Source: a virus (lineage: Duplodnaviria > Caudoviricetes). Taken from it: 64,000 bases of DNA. The position numbers were made by a program, and so were the translations under genes. Positions 13,585-19,690 of the stretch are shown here, piece by piece. The DNA lies in the IMG/VR virus record IMGVR_UViG_3300036770_001877, positions 252 to 64,251 of that record; one strand, given 5' to 3'. The notes below the pieces were generated by a model. The model had not been told where the DNA came from. It saw only the letters and a list, made by a program, of their open reading frames with translations, and did no database searches. Position 1 is the stretch's first letter. Each line of letters starts with the position of its first letter.

Positions 13585-14646
13585 ATGAAAGTCGCTGTTT
13601 ACACCATAGCTTTAAATGAAGAACACTTTGTATCCAGATGGTACGAGTCAGCTAAAGATGCCGACTACCTACTAATTGCAGATACCGGTTCTACAGATGG
13701 AACTCCAGATACTGCAGTTAATCTAGATATAAATGTCTACGACTTGTCTATAAAACCCTGGAGGTTTGACGACGCCCGCAACGCATCATTGGCTTTAATA
13801 CCAGCCGATATTGACTACTGCATCGCACTGGATATGGATGAAGTACTCATGCCAGGTTGGCGAAAAGAACTAGAAAAGGCCCACACCCATAAGTGGACAC
13901 GACCACGATACAAATACACGTGGAGCTGGAATCCTGATGGCTCGCCAGGATTACAGTACGGCGGTGACAAGATTCACCTACGCCATTACTATCGCTGGAA
14001 GCACCCTGTACACGAAGTCATAGTCCCTGACAGGATTGCGGAGACTCAAGGGTGGACAAATCTGGAGATACATCACTATCCAGATAGCACTAAGTCTCGT
14101 GGCCAGTACTTCCCACTTCTTGAGCTGTCAGTTAAGGAAGACCCTAGCGATGATAGAAACGCATTTTATTACGCTAGAGAATTATTTTTTCACGGGCAAT
14201 TTGAGAAATCAATTGCTGAATTCCAAAGACATCTGAGCTTACCGCGAGCTACCTGGCGGCCAGAACGCGCCGCCTCCATGCGCTACATTGCAAAGATGTC
14301 TGACAACCCGACAGAGTCAGAGGCTTGGTTTAAGCGAGCTATAGACGAAGTGCCAGATAGACGAGAGGCCTATGTAGAGCTAGCCAAGCTTTACTACGAA
14401 CAAGCTAGGTGGGCAGAGTGTCTGCAGGTTTCTGAGAAAGCTTTAGAGATTAAAGACAAGCCATTAGAATATCTGTGCGAGGAGTTTGCTTGGGGTTCAG
14501 AGCCCTGGGATTACGCGGCAATCGCATCTTACAACTTAGGTCTTTTTGATAAAGCACTTAAATATGGAGCCAAAGCCGTAGAATTGAATCCACAGGACCA
14601 AAGGCTTAATAACAACCTGGTCTACTACCAGCTTAAGGAGGCGTAG
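13585..14646 (+). CDS. Glycosyltransferase family 2 with C-terminal TPR repeats
   Basis: 'IALNEE', 'DTGSTDGT', 'FDDARN', 'LDMDE' (DxD), 'VHE'; TPR-like helices. Confidence 0.92.
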   Translation: MKVAVYTIALNEEHFVSRWYESAKDADYLLIADTGSTDGTPDTAVNLDINVYDLSIKPWRFDDARNASLALIPADIDYCIALDMDEVLMPGWRKELEKAHTHKWTRPRYKYTWSWNPDGSPGLQYGGDKIHLRHYYRWKHPVHEVIVPDRIAETQGWTNLEIHHYPDSTKSRGQYFPLLELSVKEDPSDDRNAFYYARELFFHGQFEKSIAEFQRHLSLPRATWRPERAASMRYIAKMSDNPTESEAWFKRAIDEVPDRREAYVELAKLYYEQARWAECLQVSEKALEIKDKPLEYLCEEFAWGSEPWDYAAIASYNLGLFDKALKYGAKAVELNPQDQRLNNNLVYYQLKEA

Positions 14647-15179
14647 TGCGAGCCTATACTCCGGGCGGAAGATTTGATTCAGATTTTGAATTAGACTCTA
14701 TGGGCGATGGAATAACCGCTGACCTAACAAACCCTGCTGGTACTACCGCTGAGTGGTGGATATTCGACAGAGTCAATAGCACTAAAGACCCGATATACGA
14801 TGTAGAGCCAATCGGAGGCGGACGCCTCTGGACTGGGCCCTACACCCTATCGGTTATTAGAGCCTCAATTACTCAAGGTGCTACCCCAGTCACTGACCGA
14901 GGTTTCTATAACGCCGATACGCTACACCTAACTTTGAACGTAGATGACCTACGCCGTGTAAGCCCTGACTTGTTTAACGACCGAGGCTTAGTCAAGTCGG
15001 CAATTGACTTATCAAACAGGTACCGCCTTGTTTGGAAAGAACAGGTCTACCGACCATTTAAGACTCAACAAGCTGGACAGGTTTCAGATAGACACACCAT
15101 CATCACCTTAGATTGCATACAATTAATGCCAGACGAGCTTGTTAACGACACTCAGTTCTTGGCGTACGCCCAAGCCTAG
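14646..15179 (+). CDS. Probable head-closure/neck protein
   Basis: Position upstream of the neck/sheath genes; beta-rich sequence; inference. Confidence 0.5.
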   Translation: MRAYTPGGRFDSDFELDSMGDGITADLTNPAGTTAEWWIFDRVNSTKDPIYDVEPIGGGRLWTGPYTLSVIRASITQGATPVTDRGFYNADTLHLTLNVDDLRRVSPDLFNDRGLVKSAIDLSNRYRLVWKEQVYRPFKTQQAGQVSDRHTIITLDCIQLMPDELVNDTQFLAYAQA

Positions 15180-15187
15180 GAGGAAAT

Positions 15188-15361
15188 ATGAAGGGTAAGA
15201 AGAAGGTCGAAAAGGTAATGAAAGAGTACAAAGAAGGAACTCTTCATTCAGGCAAAGACCCTAAGGGTCCAAAGAAAGCCAAGAAGGTAACCTCTAAAAA
15301 GCAGGCTGTAGCCATTGCTATGTCTGAGGCTGGAATGGCAAAGAAGAAAAAGAAAAAGTAA
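15188..15361 (+). CDS. 57-aa Lys-rich protein, DUF6496-like (not in ORF track)
   Basis: SD AGGAGG; MKGKKKVEKVMKEYKEGTLHSGKDPKGPKKAKKVTSKKQAVAIAMSEAGMAKKKKKK. Confidence 0.85.
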   Translation: MKGKKKVEKVMKEYKEGTLHSGKDPKGPKKAKKVTSKKQAVAIAMSEAGMAKKKKKK

Positions 15362-15528
15362 TGCCAAAGAAACGTATTGGTCAGTCAGTGGGTAAAGCCC
15401 CTACTAAGGCTGTGAACATTGCCCTTACTGGTAGTAAGTACTCTTCTGGCGGACAGAAAGTAAAGCGTAAAAAGGGTGGCGTTATCAGAAAACCTAAAGC
15501 CACTATTCGCTACAAGAGGGGTAAGTAA
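15361..15528 (+). CDS. 55-aa Lys/Arg-rich protein (not in ORF track)
   Basis: TAATG coupling at both ends; MPKKRIGQSVGKAPTKAVNIALTGSKYSSGGQKVKRKKGGVIRKPKATIRYKRGK. Confidence 0.8.
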   Translation: MPKKRIGQSVGKAPTKAVNIALTGSKYSSGGQKVKRKKGGVIRKPKATIRYKRGK

Positions 15529-15746
15529 TGGCCAAAAAAGAAAAGCCTGCAACCATTAAAGCTGGCGGAGCTCCTCACGTTGTCTATAAAAAAGACAAAA
15601 AAGTTATAGTTGACCACCTTGGAAAAAAGGGTGGCAAGTGGGACAAGATAGATTTAACTAAACATACAAAAGCTAAGTCTGTGAAGGAAGGGGTTAAAGC
15701 CGTAAAGAAATGGCATAAAACCCGTCCGCATAAGAAAGGCAAATAA
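15528..15746 (+). CDS. 72-aa Lys-rich protein
   Basis: TAATG-coupled ORF. Confidence 0.8.
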   Translation: MAKKEKPATIKAGGAPHVVYKKDKKVIVDHLGKKGGKWDKIDLTKHTKAKSVKEGVKAVKKWHKTRPHKKGK

Positions 15747-15916
15747 TGGTCAAAAAAGAGAAGCCAGTCTGGGACAAAAAAGACCCAACTCCAGGTAAGT
15801 CTAGTAAACTTAGTAAGAAGCAAAAAGCTTCTGCCAAGGCTAAAGCTAAAGCAGCGGGGCGCCCCTACCCGAATCTAGTGGACAACATGGCTGCGGCCAG
15901 AAAGAAGAAAAAATAA
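15746..15916 (+). CDS. 56-aa Lys-rich protein with GRPYPNLVDNM motif (not in ORF track)
   Basis: TAATG-coupled; MVKKEKPVWDKKDPTPGKSSKLSKKQKASAKAKAKAAGRPYPNLVDNMAAARKKKK. Confidence 0.85.
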   Translation: MVKKEKPVWDKKDPTPGKSSKLSKKQKASAKAKAKAAGRPYPNLVDNMAAARKKKK

Positions 15917-16017
15917 TGTGCGCTAAATGTGGATGCGGGTGCAAGCCTGGTAAGCCAGCGAAGGGATGTAAGTGCTCATGCGCGACCTGCAAATCAGCCA
16001 AAAAGAAAAAGAAGTAG
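15916..16017 (+). CDS. 33-aa metallothionein-like Cys/Lys peptide (not in ORF track)
   Basis: TAATG-coupled; MCAKCGCGCKPGKPAKGCKCSCATCKSAKKKKK, 8 Cys in CxC/CxxC arrays. Confidence 0.75.
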   Translation: MCAKCGCGCKPGKPAKGCKCSCATCKSAKKKKK

Positions 16018-16073
16018 TTTGCGGGTGCGGTAACTGCGCTTGCGGAAAGGACAACAATGGCCAAAACTCCTAG
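15978..16073 (+). CDS. 31-aa overlapping Cys-cluster peptide, or -1 frameshift extension of 15916..16017
   Basis: MRDLQISQKEKEVVCGCGNCACGKDNNGQNS read in the -1 frame. Confidence 0.45.
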   Translation: MRDLQISQKEKEVVCGCGNCACGKDNNGQNS

Positions 16074-16350
16074 CTTTATGAAGGGCAAGTATACAAAGTC
16101 TAAGGACGAGAAGATGGATGCTCGCCTTACTAAAAAGGCTGGCCTAGATAAAGAAGACAAAGAAAAGTTTGAAAAGATGGACAAGGCTCACGGCAAGAAA
16201 AAGAAGCCTAAGACCATTGCTGAAGATAAGAAAATAGACACAGCTCTTATCAAGAAGATTAAAGCCAAGGCTAAAGCCCATGAGAAAAAAGAAGGTAAAA
16301 AGGGCGAAGAGGCTGAGGAAAAACGAGAAAAGAAGAAGGAAAAGAAGTAA
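16057..16350 (+). CDS. 97-aa Lys/Glu-rich charged protein
   Basis: SD AAAGGA; highly charged low-complexity ORF. Confidence 0.8.
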   Translation: MAKTPSFMKGKYTKSKDEKMDARLTKKAGLDKEDKEKFEKMDKAHGKKKKPKTIAEDKKIDTALIKKIKAKAKAHEKKEGKKGEEAEEKREKKKEKK

Positions 16351-16356
16351 AGCTTG

Positions 16357-16378
16357 GGCCCCCGAAAGGGGGCCTTTT
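16357..16378 (+). terminator. Rho-independent terminator
   Basis: GGCCCCC-GAAA-GGGGGCC-TTTT directly after the stop at 16350. Confidence 0.85.
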
Positions 16379-16459
16379 GCTTTATTATTGAACTGGTTCC
16401 ATGCGGGAACCAAAGCTGTACCCCTGCGTTTGACCTTGATACTCCACTAGGAGCTTGCC

Positions 16460-16633
16460 GTGCCCTACTTGTTTGAAGATAAGTACCGAAAGGTATCGGA
16501 GCCTACTGAGGCGGATTTTGCCCGTGGCTTAGCCGATAGCAATGCCGAAAAAACACGCAAAGGTACGCAGAACTTTTTAGCAGGGCTGGTAGTGGGTATC
16601 TTGTCAGCACGCACGGGAAAACGGCGTAGATGA
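16460..16633 (+). CDS. 57-aa protein with a C-terminal hydrophobic helix and basic tail (not in ORF track)
   Basis: SD AGGAG, GTG start, ATGA overlap with the next gene; ...NFLAGLVVGILSARTGKRRR. Confidence 0.6.
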   Translation: MPYLFEDKYRKVSEPTEADFARGLADSNAEKTRKGTQNFLAGLVVGILSARTGKRRR

Positions 16634-16947
16634 TTAATGACGTTCTCTCTAGCTCACTAAAGAAGCTAACAAAAACACTTACAGCGGATATCCGCAAAGA
16701 CGCCCTTATTGCTGGGTGGCCTGTGGCATTGGCCGACTCCTTGTCTGTAAAGATTGAGCGCAACTCCCTATCGGTTGAGTACCCAGAAGACTTTTCTCAA
16801 AAGATTGAAGACCTTGAGTATGGCGACGGCATGTCTACACCTAGACCTGTGCTACGCCGGTTTGCCTCTAAGCATAAGTTGAAACTGAAGAATGACATTA
16901 CTGAGGCGAGCGCCGACTGGTTGTTTGAAGAAGGGATACTTCCATGA
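16630..16947 (+). CDS. Neck/tail-completion protein (HK97 gp10-like)
   Basis: 'LEYG....PRP.LR' motif; position. Confidence 0.6.
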   Translation: MINDVLSSSLKKLTKTLTADIRKDALIAGWPVALADSLSVKIERNSLSVEYPEDFSQKIEDLEYGDGMSTPRPVLRRFASKHKLKLKNDITEASADWLFEEGILP

Positions 16948-17555
16948 GTTTTATCCTTGCCGAAGACGCTGCCCTAAAAACAAAGATGCAAGGCATCGTA
17001 GTTCCTGACGAAAAGAATGGAACACGCTCAGTACAAGTCTGGTTTGCTAATCCAGATGTTGAGACTCGCCAGCAGTCGTATCCCTATATCACAATAGAAC
17101 TTATTGGAATTGACTGGGCTAACTATAGACAGCACTCAGGTTATCTTGAAGATAACGACCGCCAAGGAACTGTTACCCCAATTAATGGAGAAGTGTTTAG
17201 ATATGAATCCCCAGCTACTTGGGATTTGCTTTATCAAATAACAGCTTATTCTCGTCATCCACGCCATGACAGAATTATCGTAGCCCACTTATTGGGCCAA
17301 GATTTTGTAGCAAACCGCGGGTTTCTACCCGTGCCTAATGACCTAGGAACAGAAACTTCCTGGCGTCACATTGTTATGCAAGATTTCGCTAAGCGCGACA
17401 CCATAGAGGACGGACGTCGGTTATACCGAAGTGTGTTCACTGTACTCGTGACTAGTGAAGGAACCCCGACCGACGGAGATTCTGTCGCCTGGGTTGAAGA
17501 TGTACTGATAAACGAAAACCCAACCTATATCCCATCCGACTACGAAGAGTTGTAA
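16944..17555 (+). CDS. Tail terminator / sheath-stabilising protein
   Basis: 'YPYITIEL', 'DLLYQITAYSR'; immediately upstream of the sheath gene. Confidence 0.65.
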   Translation: MSFILAEDAALKTKMQGIVVPDEKNGTRSVQVWFANPDVETRQQSYPYITIELIGIDWANYRQHSGYLEDNDRQGTVTPINGEVFRYESPATWDLLYQITAYSRHPRHDRIIVAHLLGQDFVANRGFLPVPNDLGTETSWRHIVMQDFAKRDTIEDGRRLYRSVFTVLVTSEGTPTDGDSVAWVEDVLINENPTYIPSDYEEL

Positions 17556-17593: not shown

Positions 17594-19081
17594 ATGGCAT
17601 ACTTACGGCCAGGAGTATATGTTGAGGAAACCCTCAACCCTATTCCGCCTGTCGTAGGCGCTAATGCAACATCTGTTGCTGCTTTTCTTGGCGCTGCCGA
17701 CAAGGGTCCTCTAAACCCAACACTTGTGACTTCGTGGACTCAGTACACAAGCCTTTACGGTTCATGGGGCACAGAAAACACTCTCACAACCGCTGTCTAC
17801 CTTTTCTTTGCAAATGGTGGAAATCAAGCGTACATAAAGAGAGTTCCAGGTGCAGGCGCATCATCCGCTACTAGAGTGTTTGATGACCGTTCTGTATCTA
17901 CTGACCCAACTCTTGCTCTTACCGCTTCAAGCGTAGGAACATGGGGCAATTCAGTTTATATAACAATCACTAACTCCACATTAGCTGACCACTTTGATGT
18001 GACTGTCTTCTATGGAGGAACTGGAGCTGCAAACGTAGTTGAGCGTTTTACTGACCTCAACATGACAGCTTCTAGCCCACGTTACGCAGTGAGCGTAATT
18101 AACGCAGGCTCTACTTATGTACAAGCATCAGACGAAGGCTCAACAGCTACCGGTGGAACAAGAAACCCATCTGTAGTTTCTCTAGAGCCTCTAGCTGGTG
18201 GCGCAAACGGCTCAGCTGTAACAGAAAGCGATATCGCTAACTCTGCTGTAGCCCTAGACACAGTTACAGAATCACTAGTACTAAACGCTCCTGGAGTTAC
18301 AACCTCAGCAGCTGTAAACGTACTACTCTCATACGCTGAAGGTCGCGACGATGTGTTCATAGTTATTGACGCTATTAACGACACCGTTGCTAACCAGATT
18401 GTTAGAGCAGCAGCTTACACAGCTAGCTCACTAGGTGCGGTTTACTATCCAAACCTAACAATTCCAAGCCCTACCTCAACAGCTGCAGGAGCAACAGTTA
18501 CTGCAAACGTTGGTGGAGCTATCGTTGGACAGTTCATGTCTACAGATGCTTCTCGTGGTGTCTTCAAGGCTCCAGCTGGTATCAACAACAGAATTGCAGG
18601 AGCAGTATCTGTTCCTAAGTTAACTAATGCAAACTTGGATGCTATGAACTCCGCGTCTGCTCCAGTTAATGCAATTCGTTATATCCCAGGCAGCGGAATT
18701 GTAGTAATGGGCGCTCGTACCCTTAAAGCAGGGTATGCAGACCGTTACGTCCCAGTTCGTCGTTCCCTCATTTACCTACGCAAGGCTTTGACTGACCTCA
18801 CAACCTTCGCAGTATTTGAGCCAAACGATGCTGTGCTCTGGCGAACAATTAATTCCACGGTATCAACCTTCTTGACAGATTTCTGGTCACAAGGCGGTCT
18901 TCGTGGAGCAACTCCAGCCGAAGCGTTCTTCGTTAAGTGCGACTCCGACACCAACCCATTGATTAAGATTGAAAATGGAGAGGTAAACATTGAAGTCGGT
19001 GTAGCCCTACAACGCCCAGCTGAATTCGTCATTATTAAAATCGGTCAATACGACGGTGGAACAACCGTCTCAGTGGCGTAA
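17594..19081 (+). CDS. Contractile tail sheath protein
   Basis: 'YLRPGVYVEE', 'FFANGG', 'GARTL', 'YVPVRR', 'VFEPND', 'PAEFVII'. Confidence 0.97.
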   Translation: MAYLRPGVYVEETLNPIPPVVGANATSVAAFLGAADKGPLNPTLVTSWTQYTSLYGSWGTENTLTTAVYLFFANGGNQAYIKRVPGAGASSATRVFDDRSVSTDPTLALTASSVGTWGNSVYITITNSTLADHFDVTVFYGGTGAANVVERFTDLNMTASSPRYAVSVINAGSTYVQASDEGSTATGGTRNPSVVSLEPLAGGANGSAVTESDIANSAVALDTVTESLVLNAPGVTTSAAVNVLLSYAEGRDDVFIVIDAINDTVANQIVRAAAYTASSLGAVYYPNLTIPSPTSTAAGATVTANVGGAIVGQFMSTDASRGVFKAPAGINNRIAGAVSVPKLTNANLDAMNSASAPVNAIRYIPGSGIVVMGARTLKAGYADRYVPVRRSLIYLRKALTDLTTFAVFEPNDAVLWRTINSTVSTFLTDFWSQGGLRGATPAEAFFVKCDSDTNPLIKIENGEVNIEVGVALQRPAEFVIIKIGQYDGGTTVSVA

Positions 19082-19093
19082 GGAGAATAATCA

Positions 19094-19690
19094 ATGGCTA
19101 CTAGCAATATCTCGCGTTTTTCTAAGCTCGCAACAGACCCGTTGCGCAGTTTTAGATTCTACGCAGAATTTACGCCAGCTGAAACAGCTGCGTATGCGGG
19201 GAACAATAACTTCACCAAGTTTACTGGTGGGTTTACTAATATCTCGGGTTTATCAATTAACACCCAGAGCATTGGATACCGCGAAGGTGGATACAACACT
19301 ACTCTGCACCAGATTCCAGGGATGACCACCTTCTCCCCAGTTTCTTTCCAACGCGGAACTCTCTTCGGAGAAGACCAAGCTATCAAGTGGATGCGCGGCC
19401 TCTTTGCTGCTGCTGCCGGAGACGGAATTGCAGTAACACCAGATGCAAGCTCATTCCGCTGCAACGTTAACATCTGGGTTCTAGACCACCCTATTGCAGA
19501 CCAGGGCGAGAACGCGTTTAAGATGCGGTTCAAGATTCACAACGCTTGGATTAGCAGCCTTAGCTACTCAGACCTCAATGCAACAGACAACCAAATCTTG
19601 TTCGAGACAATGCAGCTCGTACATGAGGGTCTATCGGTATCCTTTACCGACTCAGCAGGAAATCCTTTAGCAAGTCAGGCAAAGGGATAA
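19094..19690 (+). CDS. Tail tube protein (T4 gp19-like)
   Basis: 'DPLRSFRF', 'GF..ISGL', 'YREGG', 'IPG', 'NAW', 'E..LVHEG'. Confidence 0.93.
   Translation: MATSNISRFSKLATDPLRSFRFYAEFTPAETAAYAGNNNFTKFTGGFTNISGLSINTQSIGYREGGYNTTLHQIPGMTTFSPVSFQRGTLFGEDQAIKWMRGLFAAAAGDGIAVTPDASSFRCNVNIWVLDHPIADQGENAFKMRFKIHNAWISSLSYSDLNATDNQILFETMQLVHEGLSVSFTDSAGNPLASQAKG

What the first reader, a model, noticed from the sequence alone, without database searches (positions are those of the whole stretch)
15188..16378. Operon of 6-7 tiny, translationally coupled Lys-rich proteins inside the virion gene block (candidate DNA-condensing module)
Seen: ORFs of 57, 55, 72, 56 and 33 aa are chained by four consecutive TAATG stop/start overlaps, followed by a 97-aa ORF. 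The block opens with a strong SD and closes with a terminator. Four of these ORFs are absent from the ORF track. All are extremely Lys-rich, several end in poly-K tails, and they are not simple paralogs. Knowledge: two carry motifs of small basic proteins of unknown function (DUF6496-like; GRPYPNLVDNM). Inference: a dedicated set of protamine/histone-H1-like proteins, co-expressed with head-neck genes, that neutralise or condense DNA in the capsid, shield it after ejection, or bind ribosomes/RNA.
Basis: partly seen in the sequence, partly recalled or inferred. Interest (0 to 1): 0.8.

Follow-up and report, generated by a model that had tools for sequence, protein, structure and literature searches.

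The report
Shuffled cassette of tiny lysine-rich phage proteins
Six real, conserved genes for very small, strongly positively charged proteins sit chained together in the tail-gene block of an uncultured phage; their job is untested, but they most likely bind nucleic acid and may travel with the phage DNA.

Summary
Six ORFs (57, 55, 72, 56, 33 and 97 aa; Lys 24-37%, net charge +11 to +18) follow a strong SD. Four TAATG overlaps chain them, and an intrinsic terminator closes the block.

They are real genes. o3, o4 and o6 have pN 0.05-0.39 against pS 0.57-0.99. All 35 distinct syntenic regions from related viral contigs carry 4-8 such genes at the same place, between a 177-aa gene and the sheath genes. 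That is the tail block, not head-neck.

The set is shuffled between relatives. One near-identical strain lacks o1 exactly.

The six are unrelated families:
- o1 is DUF6496.
- o4 belongs to a family of at least 1789 clusters, found in 41 of 41 genomes of one bacterial genus.
- o3 is a folded 60-aa module that also occurs inside giant phage proteins, where [YF]xxGG motifs bracket it.
- o5 has a HypB-type CxxCGC head.

Function is untested. My best reading (0.38) is late-made, DNA-associated polycations, possibly carried in the virion. It resembles T4 internal proteins or unfused modules of polyvalent proteins. Cellular homologues and the lack of a shared targeting signal argue against a purely capsid role.

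This scan has noted the same cassette type on other DNA.

The parts
14646..15179 (+). Upstream 177-aa gene ('up177'), the conserved left flank of the cassette; its stop codon overlaps the SD of o1
   Evidence: homologues lie directly upstream of the cassette in related loci. No annotated PHROG matched.
15178..15183 (+). Shine-Dalgarno AGGAGG, 4 nt before the o1 start
   Evidence: Read from the sequence.
15188..15361 (+). o1: 57 aa, DUF6496 protein, 37% Lys, net +16, ends KKKKKK
   Evidence: Pfam PF20106, E 4.3e-10, above the cut-off. Homologues lie next to o4 in 19 of 80 viral loci. A near-identical strain has it deleted exactly.
15361..15528 (+). o2: 55 aa, K/R-rich (net +18, pI 11.9), lineage-specific family
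   Evidence: 19 related viral loci; 11 distinct homologues. No Pfam, NCBIfam or PHROG family matched. pN 0.41 against pS 0.82 versus L073.
15528..15746 (+). o3: 72 aa, a folded beta/alpha module with invariant H17, H30, H63 and D-K-I-x-L-T
   Evidence: 47 clusters; alignment A1. AF2 pLDDT 84.4, pTM 0.71. A profile search finds 216 proteins, and 83 of the best 150 are longer than 400 aa.
15746..15916 (+). o4: 56 aa, the 'AGRPYPNLVDN' family (phrog_34011), predicted helix-loop-helix
   Evidence: (1789 clusters).
15916..16017 (+). o5: 33 aa, 8 Cys, N-terminal M-C-x-x-C-G-C-G (Cys2, Cys5, Cys7 as in the HypB Ni site), ends KKKKK
   Evidence: (84% identical homologue in L208).
16018..16056 (+). 39-nt spacer. 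Its -1-frame Cys text aligns with the 5' end of the 'MCATCGCG..KPKDKHG' gene that precedes o6 in relatives, so it is probably a relic of a lost cassette member.
   Evidence: Alignment A4. ORFs labelled as that gene were counted 24 times across the 35 distinct regions. No indel is reported here in the independent strain X4, and a short X7 contig over 15967-16043 shows 0 differences.
16057..16350 (+). o6: 97 aa, K/E/D-rich (36% Lys, net +17), the most constant and last member of the cassette
   Evidence: 125 clusters; 43 viral loci. ORFs labelled o6 were counted 31 times across the 35 distinct regions. pN 0.13-0.18 against pS 0.71-0.96.
16356..16385 (+). Intrinsic terminator: 8-bp G+C stem, GAAA loop, T-run
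   Evidence: A hairpin plus T-run directly after o6 is present in 21 of 25 distinct downstream sequences of relatives, with different stem sequences.
15514..15547 (+). Junction repeat copy 1 (end of o2 / start of o3)
   Evidence: 34-nt direct repeat, 82% identical to 15732-15765 (D2).
15732..15765 (+). Junction repeat copy 2 (end of o3 / start of o4)
   Evidence: D2.

Best explanation
The block is a conserved but strain-variable cassette of six separately translated, ribosome-coupled genes for 3-11 kDa polycations. It is transcribed as the end of the late fibre/glycosyltransferase/up177 unit and stopped by its own terminator (shown by sequence and synteny). The members are unrelated small modules (shown). 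In other phages some of them (o1, o3, o4 and the partner DUF6321) are strung together inside long proteins, after an xxGG motif and sometimes next to peptidoglycan-hydrolase domains (shown).

Inferred mechanism: the proteins are made late and in quantity. They bind nucleic acid non-specifically through their lysines, associate with the phage genome, and are carried in the virion and/or enter the cell with the DNA. This would resemble T4 internal proteins, or the released modules of polyvalent proteins. There they would neutralise charge, shield the incoming DNA, or block host factors. Individual members are dispensable and are gained, lost or swapped by recombination at the similar A-rich stop/start junctions (partly shown). 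o5 would add a thiolate metal site of the HypB CxxCGC type (inferred from the motif).
For: Real genes:
- pN 0.05-0.39 against pS 0.57-0.99 for o3, o4 and o6.
- Frames stay open in all relatives.

Conserved place:
- 52 loci have both flanks, giving 35 distinct regions. All 35 carry 4-8 small basic ORFs between up177 and d105/d203/sheath.
- 84 of 147 junctions are one-base overlaps and 12 are ATGA overlaps.
- The terminator is conserved in 21 of 25 distinct downstream sequences.

Composition.

Late or structural context elsewhere:
- I tallied 121 nearest large neighbours of o4 in 70 unrelated viral loci. The named hits among the 25 commonest PHROGs were head-tail adaptor/portal (12 and 11 proteins), large terminase (5, 4, 3, 2), internal virion protein (6), virion structural protein and endonuclease VII. 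No replication family appeared in that list.
- o4 clusters lie just upstream of a T7-gp8-like portal (L041, L054, L075), between a terminase-like protein and the portal in L006, and just downstream of the large terminase in L016.

Fused forms:
- The o3 module occurs in 83 proteins longer than 400 aa among the best 150 hits.
- One of these has an SLT domain (Pfam E 3.2e-17).
- Another, 1599 aa, lies in a run of giant genes two genes from a 'virion structural protein' match (E 3.5e-54).
- L053 encodes a 1018-aa protein with DUF6321 and o4 modules and a sub-threshold Hydrolase_2 match (E 4e-6, 21.9 bits against a cut-off of 27).

Strain variation: a contig of run X7 joins 15184 to 15353, removing o1 and placing the SD before o2, and it carries a different o6 allele. 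The strain in run X4 keeps the whole cassette without indels.

Analogy: about 1000 internal protein molecules lie in the T4 head, their lysines contact DNA phosphates, and the set is diverse and polymorphic (passages of PMC3012670, and PMC12373910).
Against: - No binding, packaging or expression was measured.
- o4 occurs in bacterial chromosomes: 66 loci in genome assemblies and 41 of 41 genomes of one genus, with 1-2 copies each. DUF6496 matched in 1 of 3 bacterial genomes tested. So at least these two families work without a capsid.
- The six proteins share no N-terminal signal. Only o3 and o4 share MxKKEKP.
- Proteins normally enter a head before the DNA does, which needs targeting.
- The nearest cultured relatives, Streptomyces myophages with about 40% sheath identity, have no such cassette upstream of the sheath.
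- No Pfam or NCBIfam DNA-binding, histone, H1 or ribosomal family matched the window's proteins.
- The o3 and o4 models match no solved fold significantly.
- The fast turnover between near-identical strains fits accessory or conflict genes as well as it fits redundant counter-ions.
Confidence: 0.38

Rival explanations
1. The proteins are cytoplasmic accessory proteins borrowed from the host's own small basic proteins. They act in the infected cell on the nucleoid, on RNA or on ribosomes, for example to compact host or phage DNA or to tune late translation. They are not packaged.
For: - o4 is found in 41 of 41 genomes of one bacterial genus and as a stand-alone small gene in several bacterial chromosomes.
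- DUF6496 matched in 1 of 3 bacterial genomes tested.
- No shared capsid-targeting signal.
- Cultured relatives lack the cassette.
- From recall, not from a call: other uncultured phages are known to carry small basic ribosomal proteins such as bS21.
Against: - No ribosomal, HU/IHF or other nucleoid-protein family matched.
- The placement in structural modules is constant across unrelated phages.
- Fusion to SLT and Hydrolase_2-like domains in giant phage proteins is unexpected for purely cytoplasmic factors.
Confidence: 0.27
2. The proteins are a battery of specific counter-defence or host-takeover effectors. Each would block one host protein, as T4 Ip1-3 each block one GmrSD enzyme. The positive charge would serve only for co-packaging or solubility.
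For: - Gene content changes between near-identical strains, with allele swaps.
- Homing endonuclease genes (HNH_3, Endonuclease_7) are inserted in the cassette of relatives.
- The analogy with the T4 Ip loci and with polyvalent proteins (PMC5512222 passages).
Against: - o4 is strongly conserved across thousands of clusters and across bacterial phyla, unlike fast-evolving inhibitors.
- I did not scan the anti-defence library (PADLOC), so nothing supports this directly.
- Most members look too small and too low in complexity for specific interfaces. o3 is the exception.
Confidence: 0.2
3. The proteins are pure capsid counter-ions. They would be protamine-like peptides whose only role is to condense or neutralise the packaged DNA.
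For: Extreme Lys content and poly-K tails. Late structural context. T4 precedent for lysine-phosphate contacts.
Against: - Conserved, family-specific motifs and a folded o3 domain with invariant His residues exceed what simple counter-ions need.
- Cellular homologues exist.
- Members are individually dispensable.
- No mechanism for getting into the head is visible.
Confidence: 0.1
4. The ORFs are chance ORFs or decaying filler in an A-rich spacer.
For: The ORFs are short and low in complexity, and gene callers may skip them.
Against: Purifying selection. Dozens to thousands of homologues. Conserved coupling and terminator.
Confidence: 0.02

Closest known systems
T4-type internal proteins (Ip1, Ip2, Ip3 and the polymorphic ip loci of T-even phages)
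   Same: Several small, basic, mutually unrelated, non-essential proteins encoded in the late region, with a set that differs between related phages. In T4 about 1000 copies lie in the DNA, and their lysines touch the phosphates (PMC3012670 passages; PMC12373910 passages).
   Different: T4 internal proteins share an N-terminal capsid-targeting sequence that the head protease removes. No common signal is seen here. T4 internal proteins have no cellular homologues, whereas o1 and o4 do. Packaging is not shown here.
Polyvalent proteins of phages and conjugative elements (Iyer et al. 2017, PMC5512222)
   Same: The o1, o3, o4 and DUF6321 modules occur inside long multi-module phage proteins, in the context of virion genes or with a peptidoglycan hydrolase domain. 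The paper notes small ORFs for typical polyvalent domains lying beside large polyvalent genes (passages).
   Different: In the window the modules are separate genes. None of the enzymatic domains or processing peptidases that define polyvalent proteins was found in the window. I saw only passages of the paper, not its domain lists. Its supplementary files, which could list these modules, were not opened.
Pfam DUF6496 (PF20106), Pfam DUF6321 (PF19846) and phrog_34011
   Same: o1 is a DUF6496 member and o4 a phrog_34011 member. Relatives carry DUF6321 in the same cassette.
   Different: All three families are uncharacterised. No paper in the searched library holds 'DUF6496' or 'DUF6321'.
N-terminal CxxCGC Ni(II) site of HypB
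   Same: o5 begins M-C-A-K-C-G-C-G, so Cys falls at positions 2, 5 and 7, the ligands of the picomolar Ni site of E. coli HypB (PMC12284835 passages). 5 of the 6 'MC..CGC' head proteins of relatives that I scanned hit NCBIfam HypB_prefix_1 (E 4e-4 to 1.5e-3).
   Different: Those hits are below the curated cut-off (20-22 bits against 30). o5 itself and its L208 homologue gave no hit at E up to 10. There is no GTPase domain. o5 has five further Cys.
Histone H1 / protamine / histone fold
   Same: Lys-rich composition. The o4 model's helix-loop-helix superposes on histone-fold and AAA+ C-domain helix-strand-helix segments (27-32 columns, rmsd 1-2 A).
   Different: Those matches are not significant (best E 1.7). 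A profile search against PDB sequences finds no histone, and neither does Pfam. No window protein has AKKA-type H1 repeats. One relative's peptide does, with a sub-threshold H1-like hit (E 0.0025).

Membership tests
Pfam DUF6496 (PF20106) | Score above the curated gathering cut-off (24 bits) | tested here: met
   o1 scores 40.3 bits, E 4.3e-10; 40.1 bits in the six-frame search.
phrog_34011 | Full-length profile match | tested here: met
   o4: E 2.6e-19, residues 3-56 on profile positions 2-54 of 55.
T4-type internal proteins | Shared N-terminal capsid-targeting sequence with a head-protease cleavage site | tested here: not met
   The six N-termini have nothing in common, except that o3 and o4 share MxKKEKP. 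No head protease gene lies in the window, but the head genes are missing from this partial record.
T4-type internal proteins | Present inside the capsid and ejected with the DNA | not testable with these tools
   Needs virion proteomics. No cultured phage with the cassette was found.
T4-type internal proteins | Small, basic, non-essential, polymorphic between related phages | tested here: met
Polyvalent proteins | Two or more effector domains in one polypeptide | tested here: not met
   The window encodes six separate ORFs. Fused relatives exist elsewhere.
Histone fold / H1 / protamine | Match to a histone, linker-histone or protamine family by sequence or fold | tested here: inconclusive
   No Pfam or NCBIfam match at E up to 1. 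The o4 profile against PDB sequences finds none. The best Foldseek rows are histone-fold segments, but at E 1.7-4.
HypB N-terminal Ni site (NCBIfam HypB_prefix_1, NF053667) | CxxCGC with Cys at positions 2, 5 and 7 of the protein | tested here: met
   o5 reads M-C-A-K-C-G-C-G. The motif's definition comes from PMC12284835 passages.
HypB N-terminal Ni site (NCBIfam HypB_prefix_1, NF053667) | Profile score above the curated cut-off (30 bits) | tested here: not met
   o5 gave no hit at E up to 10. Relatives' peptides score 19.8-21.6 bits.
Ribosomal proteins (for example bS21) | Match to a ribosomal protein family | tested here: not met
   None of the six matched at E up to 1 in Pfam or NCBIfam.
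Metallothionein | Match to a metallothionein family | tested here: not met
   o5 has no Pfam or NCBIfam hit. The Cys-rich composition alone (8 of 33) is shown.

The most novel reading that the evidence does not exclude
The cassette is the unfused form of a modular system in which giant phage proteins are cut at [YF]xxGG sites into basic modules of about 60 aa (DUF6496, o3, o4, DUF6321). These modules would coat the genome in the capsid and enter the cell with it. That would make them a phage counterpart of the adenovirus core proteins, which adenain releases at xGG sites (recalled). A HypB-type metal-capped peptide (o5) would be an added member. Supporting counts: [YF]xxGG occurs 523 times in the 83 giant proteins, against 58.7 +/- 8.2 in shuffles. 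It lies within 30 residues upstream of the o3 module in 72 of 80 cases and downstream in 65 of 79. An xxGG motif also directly precedes the o1, o4 and DUF6321 modules in the five fused ORFs found.
Probability: 0.12. Interest if true: 0.85.

Novelty: new variant of a known kind. Interest (0 to 1): 0.6.

Why it matters
Small ORFs like these are often skipped by gene callers; four of the six fall under the 60-aa cut-off. Yet one of them (o4) belongs to a family of at least 1789 protein clusters, present in hundreds of viral contigs and in every genome sampled of one bacterial genus, and it has no name or known function. If the cassette proteins ride with the genome, they would be a widespread class of phage internal proteins outside the T4 model. 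They could bear on capsid pressure, virion stability in ion-poor water, protection of incoming DNA, and the origin and processing of giant phage proteins. If instead they act on host nucleoid or ribosomes, they would point to an uncharacterised set of conserved bacterial small basic proteins. Either way they are short enough to synthesise and test directly.

Tried and rejected
Searches that gave nothing:
- DNA searches of the 'phages' collection with 14600-17000 (distant mode) and 1-25000 (near mode).
- tblastn of o4, of an o4 relative and of o1 against 'phages'. The low-complexity filter and the size of the database may hide such short basic queries.
- A scan of viral contigs with the 203-aa flank protein found no relative.
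- PDB sequence searches with o1 and o4 gave no match. o3 gave only designer repeat proteins. The o4 profile gave only a frog peptide at E 0.72. The L053 giant protein gave only a phycobiliprotein linker at E 1.4e-4.
- Fold searches. For o3 the best Foldseek E was 0.65, and the best VIA-align Z was 4.6 over 48161 chains, below the tool's stated noise level. For o4 the best Foldseek E was 1.7. The top rows are histone-fold and AAA+ C-domain helix-strand-helix segments. I treat this as a lead only.
- The ESM Atlas gave only unnamed viral clusters for o4 (score 0.95) and o3 (0.87).
- Papers. No paper holds 'DUF6496' or 'DUF6321'. Two word searches for lysine-rich small phage or actinophage proteins gave nothing relevant in the listings. 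I therefore found no description in print, within that library only. Supplementary files were not opened.

RNA evidence. One metatranscriptome run (X20) has near-identical contigs on the sheath and tube genes (17841-18043, 19115-19499). On the cassette it has only pieces of 42-73 nt at about 90% identity, which belong to relatives. This shows neither expression nor silence of the cassette.

X13 joints. The joints that would remove o6 have short sides and low identity, so I did not use them.

Programmed -1 frameshift at the o5 K-run. I rejected this in favour of a relic of the lost 'MCATCGCG..KPKDKHG' gene (alignment A4). No indel is reported there in the independent strain X4, and a short X7 contig over 15967-16043 shows 0 differences, so it is not an assembly error. 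The frameshift itself was not tested.

Own promoter. Only one weak sigma-70-like site lies nearby (15074-15103, 9 of 12). The scan found 3 sites in 5 kb, against 5.6 expected. I therefore read the cassette as co-transcribed with the upstream genes.

Rows dropped before counts:
- 6 of the 80 o4 loci had no ATG-started ORF around the match.
- those 6 loci were dropped, plus the 4 lineage relatives and ORFs over 800 aa.
- only loci with both flanks were counted (52, including the window), and identical regions were merged to 35.
- 10 of the 83 large o3-module proteins were scanned.
Full report
WHAT IS THERE. The window is 64000 bases of a 64251-base viral record rated 67% complete.

At 15188-16350 six + strand ORFs of 57, 55, 72, 56, 33 and 97 aa tile the DNA. 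The first five are joined by four TAATG one-base overlaps. A 39-nt spacer precedes the sixth. AGGAGG lies 4 nt before the first ATG and overlaps the stop codon of the upstream 177-aa gene. A hairpin at 16356-16375 plus a T-run closes the block. It folds at -27.1 kcal/mol, z -4.0, and 0 of 200 shuffles fold as well.

Lys makes up 24-37% of each protein, against a mean of 4.9% (maximum 9.2%) in 41 large ORFs. Net charges are +11 to +18. No pair of the six is significantly alike: the best blastp E is 0.44, for seven shared N-terminal residues of o3 and o4, and Smith-Waterman z is at most 2.4 against shuffles.

Its context needs one correction. Upstream lie collagen-like tail fibres, a glycosyltransferase and the 177-aa gene. 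Downstream lie three small genes, then sheath, tube, tape measure and baseplate, and then replication genes. This is the tail block. The head genes are not in the window.

THEY ARE GENES. Against syntenic relatives, o3, o4 and o6 have nonsynonymous differences of 0.05-0.39 per site, while synonymous sites are near saturation at 0.57-0.99. o2 and o5 are weaker (pN 0.34-0.45 against pS 0.82-0.99).

Homologues are many:
- o4: at least 563 stretches in viral contigs and 1789 protein clusters.
- o6: 43 viral loci and 125 clusters.
- o3: 47 clusters.
- o2: 19 loci.

A CONSERVED PLACE WITH SHUFFLED CONTENT. Fifty-two loci, the window included, hold both flanking genes. They give 35 distinct inter-flank regions, and every one carries 4-8 small basic ORFs. 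Of 147 junctions between consecutive basic ORFs, 84 are one-base overlaps and 12 are ATGA overlaps.

Members keep their relative order but come and go. ORFs carrying each label, counted across the 35 regions:
- o6: 31
- o3: 24
- an 'MCATCGCG..KPKDKHG' peptide: 24
- o2: 21
- an 'MC..CGC' peptide with an EF-hand-like loop: 21
- a 'PCWDGY' peptide: 19
- o4: 11
- o1: 5
- o5: 3
- DUF6321: 1

A hairpin plus T-run follows o6 in 21 of 25 distinct downstream sequences, and the stem sequences differ. HNH_3 and Endonuclease_7 genes sit inside the cassette of some relatives. The o2/o3 and o3/o4 junctions of the window are a 34-nt direct repeat at 82% identity. That is a plausible substrate for recombination (inference).

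Contigs from other public runs show the turnover directly. One near-identical strain (X7; 46 differences over 2185 bases) joins 15184 to 15353. This removes o1 exactly and leaves the SD in front of o2. The same strain carries a different o6 allele. Another strain (X4) keeps the whole cassette without indels.

The nearest cultured phages are Streptomyces myoviruses with about 40% sheath identity. One of them, LuckySocke, has no such cassette before its minor tail and sheath genes. The host is probably an actinobacterium. That rests on these relatives and on a first-reader note of a WhiB gene, which I did not test.

THE FAMILIES.
- o1 is a DUF6496 protein.
- o4 matches phrog_34011. Its invariant residues are W9, P14, K27, A34, A37, G38, R39, Y41, P42, N43, D46 and N47 across 78 sequences. 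The predicted structure is two helices around the RPYPN loop (pLDDT 81).
- o3 folds with confidence into four strands and two helices (pLDDT 84.4, pTM 0.71). H17, H30 and H63 and a DKI.LT motif are invariant. It matches no solved fold.
- o5 has 8 Cys in 33 residues and begins M-C-x-x-C-G-C-G. That places Cys at 2, 5 and 7, the ligands of the picomolar Ni site of HypB (PMC12284835 passages). An earlier report of this scan gave me this lead. In my own test, 5 of the 6 relatives' head peptides hit HypB_prefix_1 below its cut-off. o5 and its closest homologue did not hit at all.
- o2 and o6 have no named family.

FUSED FORMS. A profile of o3 finds 216 proteins in 1.84 billion representatives. Of the best 150, 83 are longer than 400 aa (up to 2409 aa), and the module can lie anywhere along them.

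In these 83 proteins [YF]xxGG occurs 523 times, against 58.7 +/- 8.2 in shuffles. It lies within 30 residues before the module in 72 of 80 cases and after it in 65 of 79.

I scanned ten of the 83. One has an SLT transglycosylase domain, one has a SET domain, and eight have no Pfam family. One 1599-aa example lies in a run of giant co-oriented genes, two genes from a strong 'virion structural protein' match.

Among 683 ORFs of at least 150 aa in 144 viral loci, five distinct ORFs carry cassette modules. Each module follows an xxGG motif. They include a 1018-aa protein with DUF6321 and o4 modules in tandem and a sub-threshold Hydrolase_2 match.

o4 and DUF6321 are also neighbours in 59 of 80 viral o4 loci and in 17 of 66 loci from bacterial assemblies.

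OTHER PHAGES. In 70 unrelated viral loci I tallied the nearest large neighbours of o4, 121 proteins in all. The named hits among the 25 commonest PHROGs were portal/head-tail adaptor, large terminase, internal virion protein, virion structural protein and endonuclease VII. In examples I checked, the small basic genes lie just upstream of a T7-gp8-like portal (L041, L054, L075), between a terminase-like protein and the portal (L006), or just downstream of the large terminase (L016).

CELLS. o4 relatives occur in 66 loci of bacterial genome assemblies. Among them are isolate chromosomes, where the gene stands alone. All 41 sampled genomes of one genus carry it, with 1-2 copies each. DUF6496 was found in 1 of 3 bacterial genomes tested and in none of 14 control genomes.

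READING. Shown: a conserved, coupled, terminator-closed cassette of unrelated polycationic micro-proteins in the late structural region, with gene-level turnover between strains and modules shared with giant phage proteins.

Inferred: that they bind nucleic acid, and that they are packaged or travel with the DNA. The structural context in three phage layouts and the fusions to cell-wall hydrolase domains favour a virion-linked role. The T4 precedent does too. The cellular homologues, the missing targeting signal and the absence of the cassette from cultured relatives favour a cytoplasmic or accessory role.

I put 0.38 on the DNA-associated, virion-linked reading. The rivals get 0.27 (cytoplasmic nucleoid/RNA/ribosome binders), 0.20 (specific counter-defence effectors), 0.10 (pure counter-ions) and 0.02 (not genes).

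LIMITS. Nothing here measures expression, binding or packaging. Supplementary files of the cited papers were not seen. Of the papers I saw only search listings and the passages named by call number.

Noticed in passing
window 16014-16073: The Cys-rich text in the -1 frame after the o5 stop aligns with the 5' end of the 'MCATCGCG..KPKDKHG' gene that precedes o6 in most relatives. It looks like a 39-nt relic of a deleted cassette member rather than a frameshift extension. No indel is reported there in the independent strain X4, and a short X7 contig over 15967-16043 shows 0 differences.
   Followed up: partly
proteins P0303-P0437 (hits of the o3 profile); L211:9001-13797: Giant phage proteins (400-2409 aa) carry the o3 module and are studded with [YF]xxGG motifs: 523 observed against about 59 expected. 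The motifs bracket the module. They may be linkers or processing sites.
   Followed up: partly
L053:1136-4189: A 1018-aa phage protein has a sub-threshold SleB-type Hydrolase_2 match, a Gly/His-rich stretch, and then DUF6321 and o4 modules. The modules are separated by repeated 'xDGG-[AS]IDDAL' linkers.
   Followed up: partly
L002-L081 and L082-L147: o4 and DUF6321 form a conserved gene pair. They are adjacent in 59 of 80 viral loci and in 17 of 66 loci from bacterial assemblies. The window itself lacks DUF6321.
   Followed up: partly
genomes G002, G005-G044: The o4 family is present in 41 of 41 sampled genomes of one bacterial genus (Xanthomonas, by the title of the locus used as centre), with 1-2 copies each. 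It is an unnamed core small protein.
   Followed up: partly
window 16460-16633: Just after the terminator lies a 57-aa ORF with a hydrophobic stretch and a basic C-terminus. Similar small ORFs occupy the same place in relatives. Its function is unknown.
   Followed up: no
L063:4698-4979; L164:1504-1926: HNH_3 and Endonuclease_7 (homing-endonuclease-type) genes are inserted among the small basic genes of relatives. Endonuclease VII PHROGs are also common next to o4 in unrelated phages.
   Followed up: no
window 15185-15352 and 16043-16336: A near-identical strain in another public run lacks o1 through an exact 168-nt deletion and carries a divergent o6 allele.
   Followed up: partly
window 15528-15746: o3 has three invariant His residues (H17, H30, H63) and a nearly invariant D29 in 48 sequences. 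This suggests a metal or ligand site.
   Followed up: no
L192:3174-3359 and relatives: Cassette peptides of relatives combine the MC..CGC head with an EF-hand-like loop (D-x-D-x-D-G-x-L-E-x-x-D). The Pfam EF-hand and dockerin hits are weak (E 0.003-0.04).
   Followed up: no
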